Assembly: GCA_965287045.1 (NCBI GenBank)
Contig: OZ336878.1
Location: 44,144,001 to 44,208,000 of the forward strand
Source: Carcharhinus amblyrhynchos
Lineage: Eukaryota
Direction: 5' to 3'
Length of the DNA stretch: 64,000 nt
Part shown: positions 2,893-64,000 of the stretch, piece after piece
Layout of the letters: each line of letters starts with the position of its first letter
How positions within the stretch are numbered: position 1 is the first letter of the stretch
Notes under the pieces: generated by a model
Told to the model about the DNA's origin: nothing
The model's input: only the letters and a program-made list of their open reading frames with translations
Databases searched by the model: none
Program-made: the position numbers and the translations under genes

Positions 2893-3203
2893 CTCATAGA
2901 CTCTGACAATGCAGAAGGAGGTCATTCGACCCATCGAGTCTGCACTGACACAATTCCATCCAGGCCCTATCCTCATAACCCATTTACTCTAACCAGTTCC
3001 CCTGACACTAAGGGACAATTTAGCATGGCCGATCCATCTAACCTGCACATCTTTGGACTCGTGTGAGGAAACCAGAACGCTTTGAGGAAACTCACGCAGA
3101 CATGGGGAGAATGTGCAAACTCCACCCAGACAGTGACCCAAGCCGGGAATCGAACCTGACCCCTGGTGCTGTGAAGCAGCAGTGCTAACTAATGTGCCAC
3201 TGA
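2893..3203 (-). mobile_element. HE1-like V-SINE, tail type 1
   Basis: Reverse complement of the tRNA-like head gtggcacattagttagcactgctgcttcacag with the V-domain-like core gtttgcacattctcccc. Confidence 0.85.
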
Positions 3204-3292
3204 GCTTTCTCCATGAATGAATGAAAAAACACCACACAATAATCCAGGAGCTATCTCACAAAGGGTCATTACTGCAGTAAGACTTCCTTCCT

Positions 3293-7689: not shown

Positions 7690-8454
7690 CTACAATTTTA
7701 AGATTAAAGCAGGATAAAAGTAACAAGGCCTGTGGCTGTCAAGGTGTTCATGATTGGCACTTTGCAAAATCCAAAATGAAACGGCTGCTCTTGGATGCGA
7801 TTTCTCGATTGGGCAACACTTGCTGAACATCCTGAATTTGCCAATAGTTACACCAACAATCGATTCAAGATAGTCAGTTAAGCTGACAAAATGGCTCATT
7901 TACACTTGTTAGAAGTGATGTAAATTCATATGTAGGGACCCATTTTCTGTAAACAAAAGGAATAAGTGCAAGCTTTGCATCTTTCTCTATTTCCAGGGAG
8001 CTTGGGGAATCTTTCTTCGCATCCTACGTGCCTCAATGCCTTAGCCAATCAAAGTTGACTTGTCAACCAATCAGCACCCTTTTCTCCTGCAGTATAAATT
8101 ATTGAAATGGTTTGAAATTTGGCACTTTTGGCATTTGTTTTGTTGAGAGGAAGACAGAAAGGTTTGCTATGTGTTTCTTTTCAACAATGAACATTAGAGA
8201 GTACATTCAGGTATAAGTTCAGTTTAAAAAATCAAACATAAATCTGGTTCCATTCATCAGTGCCACATTTTTCAGAGATCCCTTAACATATTAATTATTT
8301 ACATTCCTAGTGTTTCTACCTTTATATTCATGTTATCCAATAGTTAATACTTTGACTAAATTTTCCTCAATTTGTTTATGCATCTACCATCAATCAGGTT
8401 GTATATCCATCAAACTTCATCTCCAGATTCCACATCACCCTGTGTAAGGCTATT

Positions 8455-8775
8455 CAGAGAATGCTACACTGCAGAAGGAGATCATTCAGCCTATCAAATC
8501 TACGCTGACTACAATCCCACACAGACCCTATCCCCATAACCCCATGCATTTACCCTAGCTGGTCCCCCGACACTAGCGGGCAATTTAGCATGGCCAATCC
8601 ACCTAACCCGCACATCTTCGGACTGTGGGAAGAAACCAGAGCACACTGGAGGAAACCCATGCAGAGACTAGGAGAATGTGCAAACTCCACACTGACAGTG
8701 AGCCAAGCTGGAAATTGAGCCCAAGTCCCTGGCGCTGTGAGGCAGCACTGCTAACCACTATGCCACCATGCCACA
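8455..8775 (-). mobile_element. HE1-like V-SINE, tail type 1
   Basis: Reverse-complement match to the other copies. Confidence 0.9.
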
Positions 8776-12246: not shown

Positions 12247-12571
12247 TAGCACGGTGGCACTGTGGTTAGCAATGTTGCCTCACAGCACCAGGGATCCAGG
12301 TTCAATCCCGGCCCTCTGTTACTGTTTGTGTGAAGTTTGCACATTCTCCCCGTGTCTGTGTGGGTTTCCTCCGGGTGCTCCGGTTTCCTCCCACAGTCCA
12401 AAGTTGTGCGGGTTAGGTTGACTGGCCGTGCTGAATTGACCCTGGTGTCAGGGGGCTTAGCAGGGTAAATATGTGAGGTTACGGGAGTAGGGCCTGGGTG
12501 GGATTATGGTTGGGATGCACACTCGATAGGCTGAATGGCCTCCTTCTGCAATGTAGAAATTCTATGATTCT
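12247..12571 (+). mobile_element. HE1-like V-SINE, tail type 1
   Basis: Near-consensus, CpG-retaining copy. Confidence 0.9.
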
Positions 12572-12839
12572 AAGCTATTCTGGAGGCTAACGAAGTAAAG
12601 ATTTTTGTAATGTCATCAAATAGGCTGATGTTATATCCCAGTATTCTACCACAGGGTGAAGGCCAAGAATTTGACAATGGAGTTCCAACTGCCGAGGTGA
12701 CAATAGAAAATTTCTATCCTCTGTGCAGAGATGTGGGCAGAACTTTGACTCCAAAAGGGAAATGGGGTTGGGTGCATGTAGGAATTCAATCCCCAAAAGA
12801 GTGACTTTGGGTAGCGGAAATTGAATTTAGGAGAGGGCC

Positions 12840-15249: not shown

Positions 15250-16450
15250 GAAGGAAGGCACAGAAAATTGAAAATATGCCTAGACCTATAGATGTCTCTT
15301 AGCTAAGGTCATATCTGAGTATGATTAAATATTATCGAAAATATGTACTGGATCTAGCATTCAAAATTGCGCCAATGACTTCACTCCGAGAAAAGGCTTG
15401 GAAGTAGTAATGGCAACAAGAAGCAGATGATGCATTTCTATGATTAAACCGATTACTGAGAGAGGATTTTAGACACATTTTAATTCAGAATTGTCGATAA
15501 CAATGGATGCTGATGCAAGTCCTATTGTAGTAGGATCAGCTCTTTCACATATTTCCTAATGGAGGTGAAAAGCTAATAGAGCTTGCATCAACGGTGGCAC
15601 GGTGGTTCACATTGCTGCCTCACAGCGCCCAGGACCAAGGTTTGATTCCCGGCTTGGATCACTATCTGCGAAGAGTTTGCACATTCTCTGTGTGTTGGTG
15701 TGGGTTTCCTCTGGGTGCTCTGGTTTCCTCCCACAATTCAAAGACGTGCTGGTCAGATGCATTGGCCATGCTAAATTGCCCCTCAGTGTCAGAGGTACAA
15801 GCCAGGGTAAATGCATGGGGTTATGGGTATAGGGCTTAGGTGGGATAGTGGTTGGTACAGACTTGATGGGCCAAATGGCCTCCTTCTGCACTGTAGGATT
15901 CTATGACTCTAAGAGCATTTTCAAAGACTGAGTGTAAATATTCTCAGATAGAACGTGAAGCTTTGGCCTTTGTATTTGTATTGAAAAGTCTTTACATGCA
16001 TGCAAACAAAAAGCAAGTTCACACTCATTACAAGTAATAATCCATTAACTGCTTTGCTAGGTCAACACAAGGAGTGACCACTAGTTCTGGCTGAGCGAAT
16101 ACAAAGATGGACAATGTGCCCTGCATGATTTGAAGGTATCATTAAGTACCGGATTTCAAAAGAAAACTCCAACCGGGCTTGCTTGTCAGAGCTGCCCAAT
16201 ATGTACGCAGATCCGGTAATGTGTGAATCAAATATGTTGATGTTTTACTGCTCATTAGGGAAGAAATTCACAATCAAATGCACAAAGATACTTTCCAAAT
16301 TCATCAGGTGTACCTTGAAAGGATGGCCAAATGAGCTCTTAGAAGAAGGGAATTTGAAACCCTTCCACAGTTGAACACGGAATCCTTCTGTGTGGTGCTG
16401 CTTTAACTGAGCTACATGAAGATCATCTGTGAATCGTAAAGATGAAATCC
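15250..16450 (+). mobile_element. Decayed Ty3/Gypsy pol fragment (RT thumb/connection, RNase H), interrupted by a SINE
   Basis: Translations PRPIDVS*LRSYLSMIKYY, DADASPIVVG, KYSQIEREALA and LKGWP...LKPF match Gypsy pol motifs; many stops and frameshifts. Confidence 0.8.
15590..15909 (+). mobile_element. HE1-like V-SINE, tail type 1, inserted in the Gypsy RNase H region
   Basis: Consensus head, core and tail; the Gypsy reading resumes after it. Confidence 0.9.
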
Positions 16451-18510: not shown

Positions 18511-18789
18511 TCATGTATTCCAGGCCCAAGCACAAAAAATTGAGTCATGTAACCACTGATTATGGAAGTAATCTCAAAATGGCTGAATTGCAAAGAGGTA
18601 AGAGAATTGGAGGAAGAAGGTGATAGCCACAAGTGCAGTTCTGTAACACTGTTGGTTTTGGTGAGTTGGCAGAAAAAAGAATGGCAGATGATCTGTTCTT
18701 GACGAGTTATGGCATGAACCATGCCAATCGCCATAGTATGGGCATCCTGTGGGTATGTAAAAGCATGCAGAATGGATAGATCACAATGT

Positions 18790-18894
18790 GATGAGAATGA
18801 AGATGGAACAATTGACATCAGAGAGTATGTGATTGCCTTGTCTGTAGTGTCAAGACCATCTAAAACTCACGAAACTATTAAGTTGGCATTTACG
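18790..18894 (+). pseudogene. LPCAT1: Orphan LPCAT1 (lysophosphatidylcholine acyltransferase 1) EF-hand exon fragment
   Basis: DE|NEDGTIDIREYVIALSVVSRPSKTHETIKLAFT|gtgagt aligns to vertebrate LPCAT1 (human FDE|SGSGEVDLRECVVALSVVCRPARTLDTIQLAFK, recalled). 18796-18894 is 99 nt and ends at a consensus donor. No neighbouring LPCAT1 exons were found in the window. Confidence 0.85.
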
Positions 18895-19013
18895 GTGAGT
18901 ATCATTGTGCAGTGCATGATTTTGGACTTGCAATCAAAAATGATTGTCTGCAGCATCATTTTATGAAGCTGATTGAAATGATCAGTTTTTGGCCCTTGTA
19001 CCAATGTACCTTC

Positions 19014-20209
19014 TTTTCAGAAGGCGTTTGACAAGGTACCTCACAAGAGGTTATTGCAGAAGGTAAGGGGGCATGGAGTTGGGGGTAGGGTGTTAGCATG
19101 GATAGAGGAATGGTTGTCAAATAGGCGGCAGAGAGTGGGGGTTAATGGGTGCTATTCGGATTGGCGGTTGGTGACTAGTGGAGTGCCCCAGGGGTCGGTG
19201 CTGGGGCCTCAGCTATTTACCATTTATATAGATGATCTGGAGGAGGGAACCGAGTGTATTGTGTCGAAATTTGCTGATGACACCAAGATAGGTGGAACGG
19301 CAAATTGCGCGGAGGGTGTGGAGAGTCTGCAGAAGGATCTAGATAGGCTGGGCGAATGGGCCAGGAACTGACAAATGGAATTTAATGTTGGCAAGTGCGA
19401 GGTGGTCCACTTTGGTAGGAATAATGGTAGGAAGGACTATTACTTACGTGGCAAAAAACTGCAGCAGGCGACGGTGCAGAGGGACCTCGGGGTCCTTGTG
19501 CATGAGTCGCAAAAACCCAGCCTGCAGGTGCAGCAAGTGGTCAGGAAGGCGAATGGGATGCTGGCCTTCATAGCGAGGGGGATTGAATACAAAAGTAGGG
19601 AGGTCTTGCTGCAGCTGTATAGGGCATTGGTGAGGCCGCAGCTGGATACTGTGTGCAGTTTTGGTCGCTGCACTTACGCAAGGATATTTTGGCCTTGGAG
19701 GGAGTGCAGAGGAGGTTTACTAGGCTGATTCCGGAGTTGAGGGGGTTGAGCTATGAGGAGAGGTTGAATAAACTAGGCTTGTACTCGTTAGAGTTTAGAA
19801 GAATGAGGGGAGATCTCATTGAGACATATAAGATGATGAATGGGATGGATAGGATAGAGGTGGAGAGACTCTTCCCGCTCAGAAAGGACAGTAGGACTAG
19901 GGGGCACAGCCTCAAGATAAAGGGGGGCAGTTTAGAACGGAGTTGAGGAGGAACTTCTTCACTCAAAGGGTGGTGAATCTCTGGAATTCTCTGCCCGTTG
20001 AGGTGGTGGAGGCTGCCTCGCTAAATATTTTTAAGACGCGGGTTGATGGGTTTTTGATAAGCGAGGGGATTAAGGGTTATGGGGAGAGGGCGGGAATGTG
20101 GAACTGAGCCACGACAGATCAGCCATGATCTTATCGAATGGCGGGGCAGGCTCGAAGGGCTAGATGGCCTACTCCTGCTCTTATTTCTTATGTTCTTATG
20201 TTCTTATGT
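19014..20209 (+). mobile_element. Young 5'-truncated CR1 LINE (RT) with a premature stop and frameshifts
   Basis: [20 protein letters not shown] and FADD motifs; TGA at about 19369; (TTCTTATG)n tail. Confidence 0.95.
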
Positions 20210-22385: not shown

Positions 22386-22430
22386 TTTCTGGCTTAAGTG
22401 AGAGTAGTCACATGTTAATTCAGTGATTCA

Positions 22431-22735
22431 GGGCGACGTAGTAGCACACTGGTTAGCAGTGCTGCCTCACAGTGCCAGGGACCCGGGTTTGATTCCGGCC
22501 TTGGGTGACTGTCTGTGTGGAGTTTGTACATTCTCCCCGTGTCTGTGTTGGTTTCCTCTGACTGCTCTGGTTTCCTCCCATAGTCCAAAGATGTGCAGGT
22601 TATGTTGATTGGCAATCCTAAATTGCCCCTTAGTATCAGGGGAAATGCTGGATTAAATACATGAGGTAATGGGGATAGAGCCTGGGTGGGATTGCTGTTG
22701 GTGCAGGCTTGATGGGCCGAATGGCCTTCTTCTGC
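22431..22735 (+). mobile_element. HE1-like V-SINE, tail type 1
   Basis: Consensus head and core. Confidence 0.88.
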
Positions 22736-31112: not shown

Positions 31113-31794
31113 CTGATTTAAAGATTGACAAATAACAGGAAATCAGCATAAAAAGATAAATGTATTACAACAGCAGAGGGACATAAAAAGTGTTTTTTCA
31201 TCCTTTCTTTGGTCACTTTGCAATACCTACAATTCTTGCCTGGAACATCAGGTTGATATTTTGTTGGGCCCTTGACAAGGAGTTAATTCAGTTTTTCGTT
31301 AATTTAGCTGAATATCTAGAGATCTTTCACACTGATTTTGTCTCCAATCTTTTGCAGGGTCAAGAAATAATAATGGAATGGAAGGCATTCAGAGAAGAGA
31401 CAGTTCACTATAAACTAGGCATATGCCCTGGATGATAAAGGAAGTAGAAATTAAAATAAGAGTGGGGAGAGAGGGGGCTTCCGATAAATGTTGGGAGGAA
31501 GATGCAGTTAATAAGCAGGAAGATATTGGAAAATACATGGGAGAATTGACAAAAAATTGATTGTGGGAGGCAAAGAAAGCTTACAAGAAGAGACTAGTCA
31601 GTGATATTAAATCCAACTCCAAAACATTACACAAACGTATCAAGTATAAACGATTAGCTGGGGAAAAAGTTGGACCCGTTAGCAGTCGTCACTGTGGCTC
31701 AGCTGGTCACTGACTTACCTACGATCTCTGGTTCAAGTCCCACTCTAGAGCTTGAGCACAAAATCTGGACACAGAGGCTATGCCTAAAGGTATT

Positions 31795-32153
31795 AGAATC
31801 ATAGAATACCTACGTGCCGAAGGAGGCCATTCAGCCCATCGTGTCTGCACCAACCACAATCCCACCCAGACCTTATTCCTGTAAGCCCACATATTTATCC
31901 TGCTAATTCCTGAGACTAGGGTCAATGTAGCATGGCCACCAACCTAATGCATACATCTTTGGACTATGGGAGGAAACTGGAGCACCCAAAGGAAATCCAT
32001 GAGGACATGGGGGAGGAGGTGCAAACTCCGCACAGATAGTGACCCGAGACCGGAATTGAACCTGGGTCCCTGGCGCTGTGAGGCAGCAGTGCTAATCACT
32101 GTGCCACTGTGTTGCCCCAGTGTGAGGCAGCAGTGCTAACCACTGTGCCACCC
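31795..32153 (-). mobile_element. HE1-like V-SINE with a tandemly duplicated head
   Basis: gtgaggcagcagtgctaa(t/c)cactgtgccac occurs twice (about 32077 and 32122). Confidence 0.88.
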
Positions 32154-42164: not shown

Positions 42165-42268
42165 ACTGCTTTCAGTCTGATGTCCACTCCTTTCTAAACT
42201 AAACACCACCACCAACCAAAAACAGAAAAAAAACCTTGAATTTCCTCAGAAGGAAAAAGATGTGACCA

Positions 42269-42958
42269 GTGGGTGGGGAGCGGAGGAAGGAGGGTGGAGA
42301 GCGGATGCCTCAGCCTCTCAATCTGCATAACAGGTTTGAGGTTCTTGCTTCCAGTCTGGACGAGAACGAGGGAGGTGAGGTTGGTGAGCAAACTGCACAT
42401 AGTACAGTGATGCAGACACAGGACTTAGGCAAAGAGAAGGTGAAAAGGAACATAGTAGTAATTGGGGATAGTGGGGTTAAGGGTATTGACACTGTCCTTT
42501 GTCACAATGACAAAGTGCACAGAAGAGTGTGTTGTCTGCCTGGTGCTCGGGTCCGGGATGTCACATCTGGGCTGCAGAGGAACCTGGAGTGGGAGGGTGA
42601 GAAACCGGTCGTTGTGGTACATGTGGGTGCCAACGACGTAGGCAAAATGCGAACTGAGGATCTGGGGAGGGAGTTTGAAAAGCTGGGAATGGAATTAAAA
42701 AGTAGAACTGACAAGGTGGTTATCTCTGGGCTACTGCCTGAACCGAGTGCAGACGGGCGTAGGGTTGATAAGATTAAGGAAGTGAATGGGTGGCTCAGGG
42801 ATTGGTGTGGGAGGAATGGGTTTGAATTTATGGGGCATTGGCATCAGTATTGGGGTAGGTGGGACCTGTTCAGGTGGGATGGGGTTGGTCTGAACCATGC
42901 TGGGACCAGAGTCCTGGTGAATCGTGTATATAGGACTGTAGACAGGGCTTTAAACTAA
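42269..42958 (+). CDS. CR1 ORF1p C-terminal SGNH/GDSL esterase-like domain (5'-truncated)
   Basis: GDS block I, G block II, GxND block III; block V reads DGVGLN instead of DGLHLN. Confidence 0.85.
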   Translation: MGGERRKEGGERMPQPLNLHNRFEVLASSLDENEGGEVGEQTAHSTVMQTQDLGKEKVKRNIVVIGDSGVKGIDTVLCHNDKVHRRVCCLPGARVRDVTSGLQRNLEWEGEKPVVVVHVGANDVGKMRTEDLGREFEKLGMELKSRTDKVVISGLLPEPSADGRRVDKIKEVNGWLRDWCGRNGFEFMGHWHQYWGRWDLFRWDGVGLNHAGTRVLVNRVYRTVDRALN

Positions 42959-45933
42959 TTGGGGGGGGAGGGTGCGAGGGTAGGTGACATTACGGGGTCT
43001 AAAGTTAAGGAGAGGGTACAGGTAAGGGAAGAGGCCGAGGATGTCCCAATAATAAAGGGAGTAGGGGGCGTGAGTATGGTTGGTGGCGTTCTGGCAAATA
43101 GGGTCCAGGTGAAGGCTGGGATGAAGGCACTTTATCTGAATGCACGAAGCATTCGGAATAAAGTGGATGAGCTGGTGGCGCAGATCAGCACAAATGGATA
43201 TGATCTGGTGGCCATTACAGAGACGTGGCTGCAAGGTGACAGGGACTGGGAGCTGAATGTCCAGGGGTATCAAGTGTTTAGGAAGGATAGGCGGGAGGAA
43301 AAAGGGGGGGGGGCTTGGCTCTGCTGATTAAGGATAGCATCAGGGTGGTAGCAAGGGATGATATAGGAACCAAAGAGCAGAAAGTGGAATCGTTGTGGGT
43401 GGAGATTAGGAACAGCAAAGGGAGGAAGACGCTAGTGGGTGTCATCTATAGGTCCCCGAATAATGATCTGGAGATGGGGCGGGCTGTTAACGTGCAAATA
43501 AGTGCGGCATGCAGGAATGGAACGGCGATAATTATGGGGGATTTCAATCTACATATTGATTGGTCAACCCATGTTGGATGCGGTGGGCTCGAGGAGGAGT
43601 TCTTGGAATGCTGCTGGGATAGTTTCCTTGAACAGTGTGTGTTGGAGCCGACGAGGGAGCGAGCTATCTTGGATCTGGTGTTATGTAATGAGGCGGGTAG
43701 AATTAGGGACCTTGTGGTGAAGGATCCTCTTGGGGAGAGTGATCATTGTATGGTGGAGTTTCTGGTGCAGATGGAGGAGGAGAAAGTGGGTTCCCGGACA
43801 TGCGTCCTTTGTTTGAATAGAGGGGAGTACGGTAGGATGAGGGAAGAATTGGTGAATGTGGACTGGGGGAGCGCGTTGGAGGGAGGGTCTGCTGAGGAGC
43901 AGTGGAGGATCTTTAAGGAGATCTTTCTTGGTGCTCAGCAGAAATTTATTCCGATGGTTAAAAAGGACAGTAGGAAGAGAGGTAATAAGCCGTGGATAAC
44001 GAAGGAGGTGAAGGAAAGTGTTAAATTAAAAGCGGAGGCGTTTAGAGTAGCTAAGAGTAGTGGGTGAGAAGAGGATTGGGAGAAGTTTAAATGTCAACAA
44101 AGATTGACAAAGAAGTTGATAAAGAAGGGTAGGAGAAACTATGAAGCTGGGCTAGTGCTTAATATAAAAAAGGATAGCAAGAGTTTTTATAAATATATAA
44201 AAAGGAAGAGGCTGGCTAGGGTGAACGTTGGACCCTTAGAGGATGAGAAGGGGGACTTAGTGGTAAGGGATGGGGATATGGCTGAGGTCTTGAATAACTT
44301 CTTTGTTTCTGTCTTCACGGAGGAGGACGTGAATAATTTGCCGGGTGTTAGAGATGGAAAGGTGGTAGGACTGGAGGGTCTCAATGACATTATTGTTACT
44401 AGAGAGGCGGTGCTCGACAGACTGGAGGGACTGATTGTGGACAAGTCCCCAGGACCGGATGGAATGCATCTGAGGGTTCTGAAAGAAATGGCGGAGGTGA
44501 TAGTGGATGCCTTGGTGGTTATTTTCCAAACGTCGCTGGATTCCGGGGAAGTGCCGGAAGATTGGAAAACGGGTAATGTTACGTTGTTGTTTAAGAAGGG
44601 TGCCAGGCAAAAGGCAGGGAATTATAGGCCGGTTAGTTTAACGTCTGTTGTAGGTAAAATGTTAGAATCCGTCATCAAGGAGGAAATAGCGAGGCATCTT
44701 GAGGGGAATTGCTTGATAGAGCAGACGCAGCACGGTTTCGTTAAGGGGAAGTCGTGTCTGACAAATTTATTGGAGTTCTATGAGGATGTGTCTAGGGCGG
44801 TGGATAGAGGAGAGCCGGTGGATGTGGTCTTTCTTAATTTTCAGAAGGCGTTTGACAAGGTACCTTACAAGAGGTTATTGCATAAGGTCAGGGGGCATGG
44901 AGTTGGGGGTAGGGTGTTAGCGTGGATAGAGGATTGGTTGTCAAATAGGAGGCAGAAAGTGGGGGTTAATGGGAGCTATTCGGATTGGCGGTTGGTGACT
45001 AGTGGAGTGCCCCAGGGGTCGGTGCTGGGGCCTCAGCTATTTACCATTTATATAGATGATCTGGAGGAGGGAACTGAGTGTATGGTGTTGAAATTTGCTG
45101 ATGACACCAAGATTGGTGGAACGGCAAATTGCACGGAGGGTGTGGAGAGTCTGCAGAAGGATCTAGATAGGCTGGGCAAATGGGCCAGGAAATGGCAAAT
45201 GGAATTTAATGTTGGCAAGTGCGAGGTGGTCCACTTTGGTAGGAATAATGGTAGGAAGGACTATTACTTACGCGGCAAAAAACTGCAGCAGGCGACGGTG
45301 CAGAGGGACCTCGGAGTCCTTGTGCATGAGTCGCAAAAACCCAGCCTGCAGGTGCAGCAGGCGGTCAGGAAGGCTAATGGGATGCTGGCCTTCATAGCGA
45401 GGGGAATTGAATATAAAAGTAGGGAGGTCTTGCTGCAACTGTACAGGGCACTGGTGAGGCCGCAGCTGGAGTACTGTGTGCAGTTTTTGTCGCCGCACTT
45501 ACGCAAGGATATTTTGGCCTTGGAGGGAGTGCAGAGGAGGTTTACTAGGCTGATACCAGATTTGAGGGGGTTGAGCTATGAGGAGAGGCTGAATAAACGA
45601 GGCTTGTCCTCGTTGGAGTTTAGAAGAATGAGGGGAGATCTCATTGAGACATATAAGATGATGAATGGGATGGATAGGATAGAGGTGGAGAGGCTCTTCC
45701 CGCTCAGAAAGGACAGTAGGACTAGGGGGCACAGCCTCAAGGTAAAGGGGGGGCAGTTTAGAACGGAGTTGAGGAGGAACTTCTTCACTCAAAGGGTAGT
45801 GAATCTCTGGAATTCTCTGCCTGTTGAAGTGGTGGAGGCTGCCTCGCTGAATATTTTTAAGACGCGGGTTGGTGGGTTTTTGATAAGCGAGGGGATTAAG
45901 GGTTATGGGGAGAGGGTGGGAAAGTGGAACTGA
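42959..45933 (+). pseudogene. CR1 ORF2 (endonuclease-RT) broken by one frameshift and one nonsense codon
   Basis: ORF track pieces 42959-43327, 43315-44067 and 44104-45933 are colinear. Confidence 0.9.
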
Positions 45934-46283
45934 GCCACGACAGATCAGCCATGATCTTATTGAATGGCGGGGCAGGCTTTAAGGGCTAGATGGCCTACTC
46001 CTGCTCCTATTTCTTATGTTCTTATGTTCTTAGAACACATGATCCTCTTCGTAACAATGCAGGGCTATGAAACAACACAGTAAAAATAGACAAACCCCAC
46101 TTAAACCACTGAAGGAGCAATAAAAGGACTCCTACAGACCGCCTGGTAAGAATGAAAGCTAAATGCTACAGAGAACATGATTTTTTAAAAAAACTCTTAA
46201 AGGTACACTAACATTACAGTGGAATGGGCAAAAAAATGCTGGTTTGCCAGCGATGCCCACAACCCATGAATGATTAAAAAAAA

Positions 46284-63436: not shown

Positions 63437-63762
63437 TAGAATCATAGAACACCACAATGTAGAAAAGAGGCTATGCGGCCATCGAATTTACACTGACCAC
63501 AATCCCACCCAACCCCTATCTCCACAACCCCATGCATTTACCCTAGCTAGTCCCCCTGACACTAAGGGACAATTTAGCATGGGCAATCCACCTAACCCAC
63601 ACATCTTTATATTGTGGGAGGGAACTGGAGCACCTGGAGGAAACCCAGGCAGACATGGGGAGAATGTACGAACTCCACACAGACAGTCACCCAAGTTGGG
63701 AATCGAACCTGGGTCCCTGGCGCCATGAGGCAAGAATGCTAACCATTATGCCACCGTGCCAC
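63437..63762 (-). mobile_element. HE1-like V-SINE, tail type 1
   Basis: Reverse-complement match to the consensus. Confidence 0.88.
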
Positions 63763-64000
63763 CTGAACTCCTGCAGTCCAGATAATGTAGGTACTTTAAA
63801 TGAGATTTACTTTACAGCCACGTGAATATATTTGGTGGGAGAAGCACTGGTTGGCGAGCCTTAAAGTAACAAAGGCGTGAATAAGAGTTATGGCACCAGG
63901 TAGCTAGCTAACAGTGAAGAACATAATAGAGGACGAAGTAGGGTGTTTTGTGATGCCAAGATTATCCAGTCAGAAACTCAAACTGGGGTCAACCAGAATG

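What the first reader, a model, noticed from the sequence alone, without database searches (positions are those of the whole stretch)
18786..20209. Chimeric LPCAT1-CR1 retrocopy: a partly spliced host exon carried along with a CR1 LINE
Seen in sequence: ATGT | GATGAG + 99-nt LPCAT1-like exon + gtgagt donor + about 119 nt intron-like DNA + 5'-truncated young CR1 + tail | ATGT. The exon has no polypyrimidine tract. It is preceded instead by GAT GAG (Asp-Glu), the residues that end the previous LPCAT1 exon (…FDE, boundary recalled from human LPCAT1). No other LPCAT1 exon was found in 64 kb. Inference: the 1.4-kb unit is one insertion templated from an RNA with the upstream intron spliced out and the downstream intron retained. 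Two routes fit: 5' transduction from a sense CR1 in the LPCAT1 intron, or an RT template switch from CR1 RNA to LPCAT1 pre-mRNA. CR1 is regarded as stringent-type (it needs its own 3' tail) and rarely mobilises host mRNA, so this would be a route to exon shuffling in sharks.
Basis: partly seen in the sequence, partly recalled or inferred. Interest (0 to 1): 0.8.

Follow-up and report, generated by a model that had tools for sequence, protein, structure and literature searches.

The report
LPCAT1 exon copied by CR1 retrotransposon
A fragment of a CR1 retrotransposon landed in an intron of a shark lipid-enzyme gene, and soon afterwards the gene's half-spliced RNA was copied from that fragment into another chromosome, showing a way for a retrotransposon thought to copy only its own RNA to move host exons, although this copy looks dead.

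Summary
Confirmed. The 1,420 extra bases are one insertion. The parent is the 14-exon LPCAT1-like gene on contig C2. There, exon 12 has a normal acceptor, 123 intron bases and the same 5'-truncated sense CR1. The window copy begins with the last 6-7 bases of exon 11, which lies 12.4 kb upstream in the parent. So the template was RNA with intron 11 spliced out and intron 12 retained. Contigs of two other organisms show the empty site with ATGT once; one of them also lacks the CR1 in the LPCAT1 intron. Two others carry the insertion. An RNA-templated single event has probability about 0.93.

How reverse transcription began is open. It either primed on the intronic CR1's own tail in trans (about 0.5), or started on another CR1 RNA and switched by homology (about 0.4). 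The copy and parent share a rare stop codon, but differ at lineage markers in the 3' half. The copy has no splice acceptor and looks dead. This works like L1/SVA 5' transduction, but the source is a non-coding stub of a stringent LINE. My nine literature searches listed no CR1 case. It is one event, frequency unknown.

The parts
18786..18789 (+). Target bases ATGT, left copy of the 4-nt target-site duplication; its last T also matches exon 11 (1-nt microhomology)
   Evidence: Runs X11 and X12 have contigs covering 18525-18789 that continue straight into the sequence of window 20210 onward (tables 7 and 8)
18790..18795 (+). Last 6 bases of LPCAT1 exon 11 (Asp-Glu), the 5' truncation point of the copy
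   Evidence: Exon 11 ends at C2:44380352 with these bases before a GT donor; 7-base contiguous match against 2 for the parent intron; absent from the empty allele
18796..18894 (+). Copy of LPCAT1 exon 12 (99 nt, EF-hand region), without a splice acceptor
   Evidence: Aligns to C2:44367911-44367813 with one substitution; exon number from the 14 exons mapped
18895..19013 (+). Donor site and first 119 bases of intron 12 (123 in the parent; 4 bases lost in the copy)
   Evidence: the parent-type contigs of X6 and X11 have the 4 extra bases (table 4)
19014..20178 (+). 5'-truncated CR1: C-terminal part of the reverse transcriptase and 3' UTR, with an in-frame stop at 19369-19371 shared with the parent copy
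   Evidence: RVT_1 E 1e-15; 95.8% identical to the long CR1 at 44838-46032; same 5' junction as the parent; 41 substitutions in 1166 sites against the parent
20179..20209 (+). 8-nt microsatellite tail of CR1; about one unit longer than in the parent (3.1 against 2.0 units)
20206..20209 (+). Right copy of ATGT, overlapping the tail (duplication and 3' priming microhomology cannot be separated)

Best explanation
Step 1 (shown): a CR1 inserted in sense orientation 123 bases into intron 12 of LPCAT1 on C2, as a 1.2-kb 5'-truncated stub that cannot encode its own enzyme. Step 2 (shown from the junction): an LPCAT1 transcript existed with intron 11 spliced out and the start of intron 12, including the CR1, still attached. 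Step 3 (inferred): ORF2 protein from an active CR1 elsewhere recognised the CR1 3' end inside this host RNA in trans, nicked C9 at ATGT, primed on the tail repeat, and copied back through the CR1, the intron start and exon 12, stopping 6 bases into exon 11. The result is a 1,420-base 5' transduction with a 4-base duplication. Step 4 (inferred): the few marker differences between copy and parent arose later by mutation or gene conversion. The copy lacks an acceptor and is probably non-functional. Steps 1 and 2 and the single RNA-templated event have probability about 0.93 and are shared with the first rival. The confidence given is for the whole chain, including priming on the intronic CR1's own tail.
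For: Parent found with a real acceptor, same exon, intron start and same CR1 5' junction: 1342 of 1413 aligned positions identical. Only 2 copies of exon plus intron were found in the genome, and all 14 exons lie on C2. The similarity ends at the CR1 tail; the parent's 3' flank is not copied. Spliced junction: 7 against 2 bases. Empty C9 site in X11 and X12, filled in X5 and X6; empty parent intron in X11, filled in X6, which fixes the order of events. Among 86 CR1 matches with a 5' end inside their locus, parent/copy is the only pair sharing an extended host-sequence 5' flank but not the 3' flank; the DNA duplicates L106/L107 and L108/L109 share both flanks (the other 5'-flank hits were about 50 nt, or 150 nt that I read as CR1 pieces). 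Copy and parent agree at 17 of 18 scorable lineage markers in the 5' half. They share a stop codon seen in 0 of 43 copies not picked on that half. The same stop in 16 of 45 picked copies suggests that ORF2-dead CR1 RNA is moved in trans in this family (inference). Shark SINE/LINE pairs with a shared tail are listed in PMC3747384 (passages). An ATTAAA lies 31 bases after the parent's tail, a weak hint of an intronic 3' end.
Against: Copy and parent differ at 3 non-decay lineage markers (19114, 19551, 20002) where 0.28 flips are expected from mutation alone. Two of these are among 6 scorable markers in the 3' half, which is the commonest distance of an unrelated copy from the parent (15 of 39 copies). 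Three DNA-duplicate pairs show 0 marker flips in 10 differences (low power). Apart from the stop codon, copy and parent share no non-majority state, so the CR1 sequence alone gives little proof of descent. The spliced-template claim rests on 4-5 diagnostic bases. An AATAAA inside the CR1, 435 bases before the tail end, could cut such transcripts short. The RNA intermediate was not seen.
Confidence: 0.5

Rival explanations
1. Homology-guided template switch: reverse transcription started at C9 on the RNA of a different, active CR1, then crossed over, somewhere after about position 19371, onto the partly spliced LPCAT1 pre-mRNA using the intronic CR1 as the homologous landing site. The intronic CR1 is still the handle, but the 3' part of the copy comes from another element, and the host RNA need not leave the nucleus.
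For: The 5' half matches the parent (1 of 18 markers differ; rare stop shared) while the 3' half looks like a random family member (2 of 6 differ). Two CpG-type polymorphic sites (19826, 19929) also differ in the 3' half. The family looks recombined: mean r2 between markers falls from 0.16 under 100 nt to 0.07 over 600 nt, and 199 of 348 marker pairs show all four combinations. The tail is one unit longer than the parent's. Template switching was proposed for a CR1-mobilised SINE (PMC5729268, passages).
Against: The breakpoint was chosen after seeing the data. One flip (19114) lies in the 5' half, so markers also flip by other means. No donor lineage sharing the copy's private 3' changes emerged among 104 other copies. 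Post-insertion gene conversion would give the same pattern. The sample of copies was picked by similarity to copy or parent and is not random.
Confidence: 0.4
2. RNA template without splicing: reverse transcription stopped at the acceptor AG of an unspliced pre-mRNA, and the 4 bases before it are untemplated additions that match exon 11 by chance.
For: The last two bases (AG) fit either template. Extra bases at LINE 5' junctions are common (recalled, no call).
Against: The chance of that 4-base match is 0.004, and the next base also matches exon 11.
Confidence: 0.03
3. DNA-level duplication or repair-templated capture of a 1.4-kb piece of the C2 locus.
For: The copy keeps intron sequence and the parent's CR1 junction.
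Against: The 3' end falls exactly at the CR1 tail with no parent flank; the 5' end crosses a 12.4-kb spliced junction; the empty allele shows a clean insertion with a 4-base duplication. DNA duplicates in the sample share both flanks.
Confidence: 0.03
4. The window holds the genuine LPCAT1 locus or a working paralogue, or the unit is an assembly artefact.
For: The exon frame is open and the donor is intact.
Against: The full gene is on C2. The unit is absent in 2 organisms. An X5 contig spans 18525-19041 and an X6 contig bridges the 5' junction by 34 bases. In X5 the exon copy has two changes (18859, 18880) that alter amino acids by my reading of the frame; this is one contig at depth 2 and may be error.
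Confidence: 0.01

Closest known systems
L1 5' transductions and mRNA/LINE-1 chimeras, especially RAP1GDS1-L1PA2 (Law and Burns, PMC13174262; abstract, sections 13 and 14, and part 1 of 2 of section 15 read)
   Same: Spliced host exon sequence in sense orientation 5' of a LINE, one duplication around the whole unit, and a source LINE in an intron of the donor gene driven by the host promoter.
   Different: The 17 human cases mostly carry the first exons and near-full-length L1 that keeps its coding capacity, joined by splicing. Here the source is a 1.2-kb non-coding stub, so the enzyme must come from another element. The exon is internal (12 of 14), the join is read-through into a retained intron, and the LINE is CR1, which recognises its own 3' end rather than poly(A).
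SVA 5' transductions and SVA_F1/MAST2 (PMC12593883, passages)
   Same: A non-autonomous element transcribed from an upstream promoter carries host sequence at its 5' end and is moved in trans.
   Different: SVA is moved by L1 and ends in poly(A); SVA_F1 arose by splicing into the element and founded a subfamily. This unit left one copy found.
CR1-mobilised SINEs with a CR1-derived tail (TguSINE1/PittSINE, PMC5729268; shark HE1/HER1 listed in PMC3747384; passages)
   Same: Foreign 5' sequence plus a CR1 3' end with an 8-nt microsatellite is a substrate for CR1 reverse transcriptase.
   Different: The head is a protein-coding pre-mRNA rather than a tRNA, there is no internal promoter, and it did not amplify.
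Processed pseudogenes favoured by 3'UTR-embedded Alu (PMC5199112, abstract only)
   Same: A retroelement embedded in a host transcript raises its chance of being retrocopied.
   Different: That is a statistical enrichment in the L1 system; here the embedded element is the structural 3' end of the insertion.

Membership tests
Canonical CR1 (the LINE part) | ORF2 with apurinic endonuclease and reverse transcriptase | tested here: met
   The long copy in the window (95.8% identical) gives Exo_endo_phos_2 E 5e-08 and RVT_1 E 5e-32; the stub itself gives RVT_1 E 1e-15
Canonical CR1 (the LINE part) | Esterase-type ORF1 (also found in some L2; PMC13343379 passages) | tested here: met
   Lipase_GDSL_2 E 1.2e-07 at 42266-42955, upstream of that ORF2. 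The same paper says chondrichthyan L2 lack ORF1 and that Zenon and Rex1 lack it
Canonical CR1 (the LINE part) | 8-nt microsatellite tail rather than poly(A) | tested here: met
   Period 8, 4.0 copies; resembles the amniote CR1 octamer quoted in PMC5729268
Canonical CR1 (the LINE part) | 3' hairpin bound by the reverse transcriptase | tested here: inconclusive
   A hairpin is predicted just before the tail (about 20143-20181), but z is -1.17 against shuffles
Canonical CR1 (the LINE part) | Reverse transcriptase falls in the CR1 clade of a tree with reference elements | not tested
   No reference LINE set was available from a tool
5' transduction | One insertion event encloses host sequence and element | tested here: met
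   Empty allele in 2 of 4 runs, ATGT once
5' transduction | A source element exists with the same upstream sequence and junction, and predates the copy | tested here: met
   C2 parent. The parent intron is empty in X11 and filled in X6; the order follows from the copy containing the junction
5' transduction | RNA intermediate (intron loss) | tested here: met
   Exon 11-exon 12 junction, 7 against 2 bases, chance 0.004 for the 4 diagnostic bases
5' transduction | The whole element part, including the 3' end, descends from the source locus | tested here: inconclusive
   The 5' half fits; the 3' half differs at 2 of 6 markers
5' transduction | A chimeric transcript is made from the source locus | not testable with these tools
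   No RNA holder was listed; only contig runs were laid
L1-type processed pseudogene | Poly(A) tail, all introns removed, long duplication | tested here: not met
   CR1 octamer tail, retained intron start, 4-nt duplication

The most novel reading that the evidence does not exclude
In sharks, any young sense-strand CR1 stub close behind an exon makes the host pre-mRNA a CR1 substrate, by tail recognition in trans or by homology-guided template switching. CR1 would then be a general source of exon-plus-donor retrocopies, and would explain a real share of the 14,081 retrocopies counted in cartilaginous fishes (bioRxiv 10.64898/2026.06.26.734816, passages), against the view that CR1's sequence requirement keeps host RNAs out.
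Probability: 0.25. Interest if true: 0.78.

Novelty: new variant of a known kind. Interest (0 to 1): 0.55.

Why it matters
A review states that CR1 recognises its own RNA and that this limits which cellular RNAs can be retrocopied (PMC5470649, passages). A 2026 preprint counts 14,081 retrocopies in cartilaginous fishes and credits CR1 or Tx1 by correlation, with no mechanism in the passages I saw. CR1-group elements fill 22-34% of shark and ray genomes (PMC13343379). This locus is a resolved example of how the restriction can be bypassed: parent, copy, both empty alleles and a spliced junction are all in hand. It gives a searchable signature: exon, donor, short intron start, truncated CR1, with the same junction at a parent gene. 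That makes the contribution of CR1 to retrocopies directly countable. It is one dead copy, so it shows possibility, not rate or benefit.

Tried and rejected
(1) Flanks as repeats, to infer the empty site from other copies: the 5' flank is unique and the 3' flank has one weak 76% hit. The empty site came instead.
(2) Expression: no RNA holder listed; 4 of 22 runs were laid, all DNA-type or of unrecorded kind, so nothing is known on expression.
(3) Host gene around the insertion: 159 window frames were scanned with Pfam (22; 137, taken from the 148 longest of the 208 non-repeat frames, the other 11 overlapping). Only CR1 domains and one sub-threshold hit (E 0.0037) came up. Short exons would be missed, so intron against intergenic is open.
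(4) Generality: family searches for two genes named as frequent retrocopy parents in cartilaginous fishes. Sds3 found nothing, not even the gene, so it is uninformative. Slu7 found five exons on C13 and no retrocopy.
(5) A donor lineage for the 3' half: none found among 104 copies.
(6) An automatic duplication search at 86 CR1 matches was too permissive to measure duplication lengths and is not used.
(7) Low-frequency shared variants at 19148 and 19260 proved to be selection artefacts: 0 of 31 and 0 of 37 in copies not picked on that half.
(8) L042 looked like a 5' inversion but is an inverted CR1 piece nested in a longer one.
(9) The stickleback spiggin paper (PMC4989455, passages) is not a precedent.
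(10) Look-ups of earlier findings by place, words and sequence gave nothing.
Rows left out of the marker counts: matches under 94% identity or shorter than 600 nt, and loci that repeated the same place.

Full report
OBSERVATION. The frame from 18790 is an EF-hand-like stretch and hits LPCAT1 or LPCAT1-like proteins (16 of 23 candidates; shark proteins 86-97% identical over the match). No other LPCAT1 exon is in the window. The window lies on contig C9 of a 2.9-Gb genome.

PARENT. A search with window 18740-19030 gave 2 matches: the window itself and a place on C2. With a shark LPCAT1 protein as query, 14 exons map in order on the minus strand of C2 from 44,521,728 to 44,341,930, so the copied exon is exon 12. 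The only other near-identical protein match in the genome is the C9 copy; a 42-59% paralogue lies on C4. At the parent, the exon has a pyrimidine-rich acceptor (15 of 20 bases against 7 of 20 in the window). It is followed by 123 intron bases and a sense CR1 that starts at the same base as in the window. Window 18794-20200 aligns to it at 1342 of 1413 positions, and the similarity stops at the CR1 tail.

SPLICED JUNCTION. Exon 11 ends at C2:44,380,352, 12.4 kb upstream. Reading leftwards from exon 12, the window matches exon 11 for 7 bases and the parent intron for 2. Two of the 7 are the AG common to both and one is the last base of the target. That leaves 4 diagnostic bases, with a chance of 0.004. 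The evidence is short but strong, because the empty allele shows that these bases are not target sequence.

EMPTY SITES AND TIMING. Four of 22 listed runs were laid on 18525-19045, all as contigs. In X11 (organism D) and X12 (organism E) a contig covers 18525-18789 and then continues with the sequence of window 20210 onward. So the empty allele has ATGT once and the insertion adds 1,420 bases. X11 also has a parent-type contig that covers 18794-19014 and continues into the parent's 3' flank with no CR1; by my comparison, the parent insertion lost 3 target bases and overlaps the tail by 3. X5 (organism A) has one contig spanning 18525-19041. X6 (organism B) has one contig bridging the 5' junction by 34 bases and a parent-type contig running into the CR1. 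The flank differs from X11 at 5 and from X12 at 6 of 265 bases. Both insertions therefore happened after the split from D and before the split from A and B (inference; the parent's state in A and E was not seen).

CONTROL ON FLANKS. Among 86 CR1 matches with a 5' end inside their locus, only parent and copy share an extended host-sequence 5' flank without the 3' flank; two DNA-duplicate pairs share both flanks. This sample was chosen by similarity and gives no rate.

THE ELEMENT. A long copy in the window, 95.8% identical, has a GDSL esterase frame, then endonuclease and reverse transcriptase. With the 8-nt tail this fits canonical CR1 as described in PMC13343379 and PMC5729268 (passages). I built no tree against references. 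The predicted 3' hairpin is not stronger than shuffles (z -1.17). The parent CR1 is a 1.2-kb stub, so the enzyme came from another element.

WHICH RNA WAS PRIMED? Copy and parent differ at 41 of 1166 CR1 sites. Against 104 other copies (and local copies; matches under 94% or 600 nt and repeated places dropped), they share no private change. This fits a copy made soon after the parent inserted. They do share an in-frame stop at 19369-19371 found in 0 of 43 copies not picked on that half and 16 of 45 picked ones. At lineage markers that are not CpG decay, they differ at 1 of 18 in the 5' half and 2 of 6 in the 3' half; 0.28 flips are expected from mutation in total. Two differences is the commonest 3'-half distance of an unrelated copy (15 of 39). 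Three DNA-duplicate pairs show 0 flips in 10 differences, and the family as a whole looks recombined, with 199 of 348 marker pairs showing all four combinations. So plain descent with mutation alone is disfavoured. Either reverse transcription began on another CR1 RNA and crossed onto the LPCAT1 RNA by homology, or a later conversion changed one copy. The breakpoint is post hoc, one flip lies in the 5' half, and no donor lineage was found. I put priming on the own tail at about 0.5 and a homology-guided switch at about 0.4; these odds are my judgement, not a computed value. In both routes the intronic CR1 is what made the host RNA copyable.

FUNCTION. The copy has a donor and an open frame but no acceptor, and Pfam found no host exon in 159 window frames. 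The exon has one difference from the parent, and there the parent in this genome carries the derived base, since none of the four runs lists another letter at 18811. No change in 99 bases is unremarkable at about 1.2% per lineage. One low-depth X5 contig has two further changes in the exon. It is most likely a dead copy. No RNA was examined.

COMPARISON. It works like L1 and SVA 5' transduction. The closest described case is RAP1GDS1-L1PA2 (PMC13174262: abstract, sections 13 and 14, part 1 of 2 of section 15; SVA in PMC12593883, passages). It differs in that the source is a non-coding stub, the exon is internal, the join is read-through into a retained intron, and the LINE needs its own 3' end (PMC3747384 and PMC5470649, passages). 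Suh 2015 on CR1 and the scarcity of bird retrogenes was seen only as a citation and may anticipate this route. Nine searches of an open-access library listed no CR1-borne host-exon transduction. I opened 9 papers in part; most subscription papers are not covered, and the supplements of the bioRxiv preprint were closed. An earlier AI note from another genome describes a ZFYVE1 exon plus intron start fused to a truncated CR1. I did not check it; it is a lead on recurrence, not support.

VERDICT. A real, well-resolved, RNA-templated single insertion and a new variant of a known kind. Interest 0.55: a clean counter-example to CR1 stringency with a countable signature, but one dead copy. My two tests of generality were uninformative or negative.

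Noticed in passing
window 42266-46032 (+): Near-full-length young CR1 with an esterase ORF1 frame and an ORF2 whose endonuclease and reverse-transcriptase parts are separated by a stop codon.
   Followed up: partly
window 19369-19371; loci L022-L048, L062: The same premature stop in the reverse transcriptase occurs in 16 other copies with different flanks. This suggests a coding-dead CR1 sublineage amplified in trans, though some may be recurrent changes enriched by the search.
   Followed up: partly
104 CR1 copies across G000: Lineage markers are heavily reshuffled (199 of 348 pairs show all four combinations; r2 falls with distance), pointing to frequent template switching or gene conversion in this family.
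   Followed up: partly
L002, parent exon 12 (base matching window 18811): The working LPCAT1 gene in this genome has Val where the dead copy, the four laid runs and the two shark homologues aligned have Ile; the retrocopy keeps the ancestral base.
   Followed up: no
L002, 31 bases after the parent CR1 tail; and inside the CR1 435 bases before the tail end: ATTAAA and AATAAA on the gene's sense strand: possible intronic polyadenylation that would drop the last two LPCAT1 exons.
   Followed up: no
window 2894-3231, 8454-8774, 12250-12573, 15591-15913, 22413-22735, 31793-32111, 63437-63763 and more: An abundant family of about 300-nt repeats, 72-80% alike, probably a SINE; not characterised.
   Followed up: no
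L042 (C6:116804711-116808197): A 3' CR1 piece inserted in the opposite orientation inside a longer CR1 of the same family.
   Followed up: partly
G000:C4:42094323-42125646: A second LPCAT-family gene, 42-59% identical to the query, probably LPCAT2 (name inferred).
   Followed up: no
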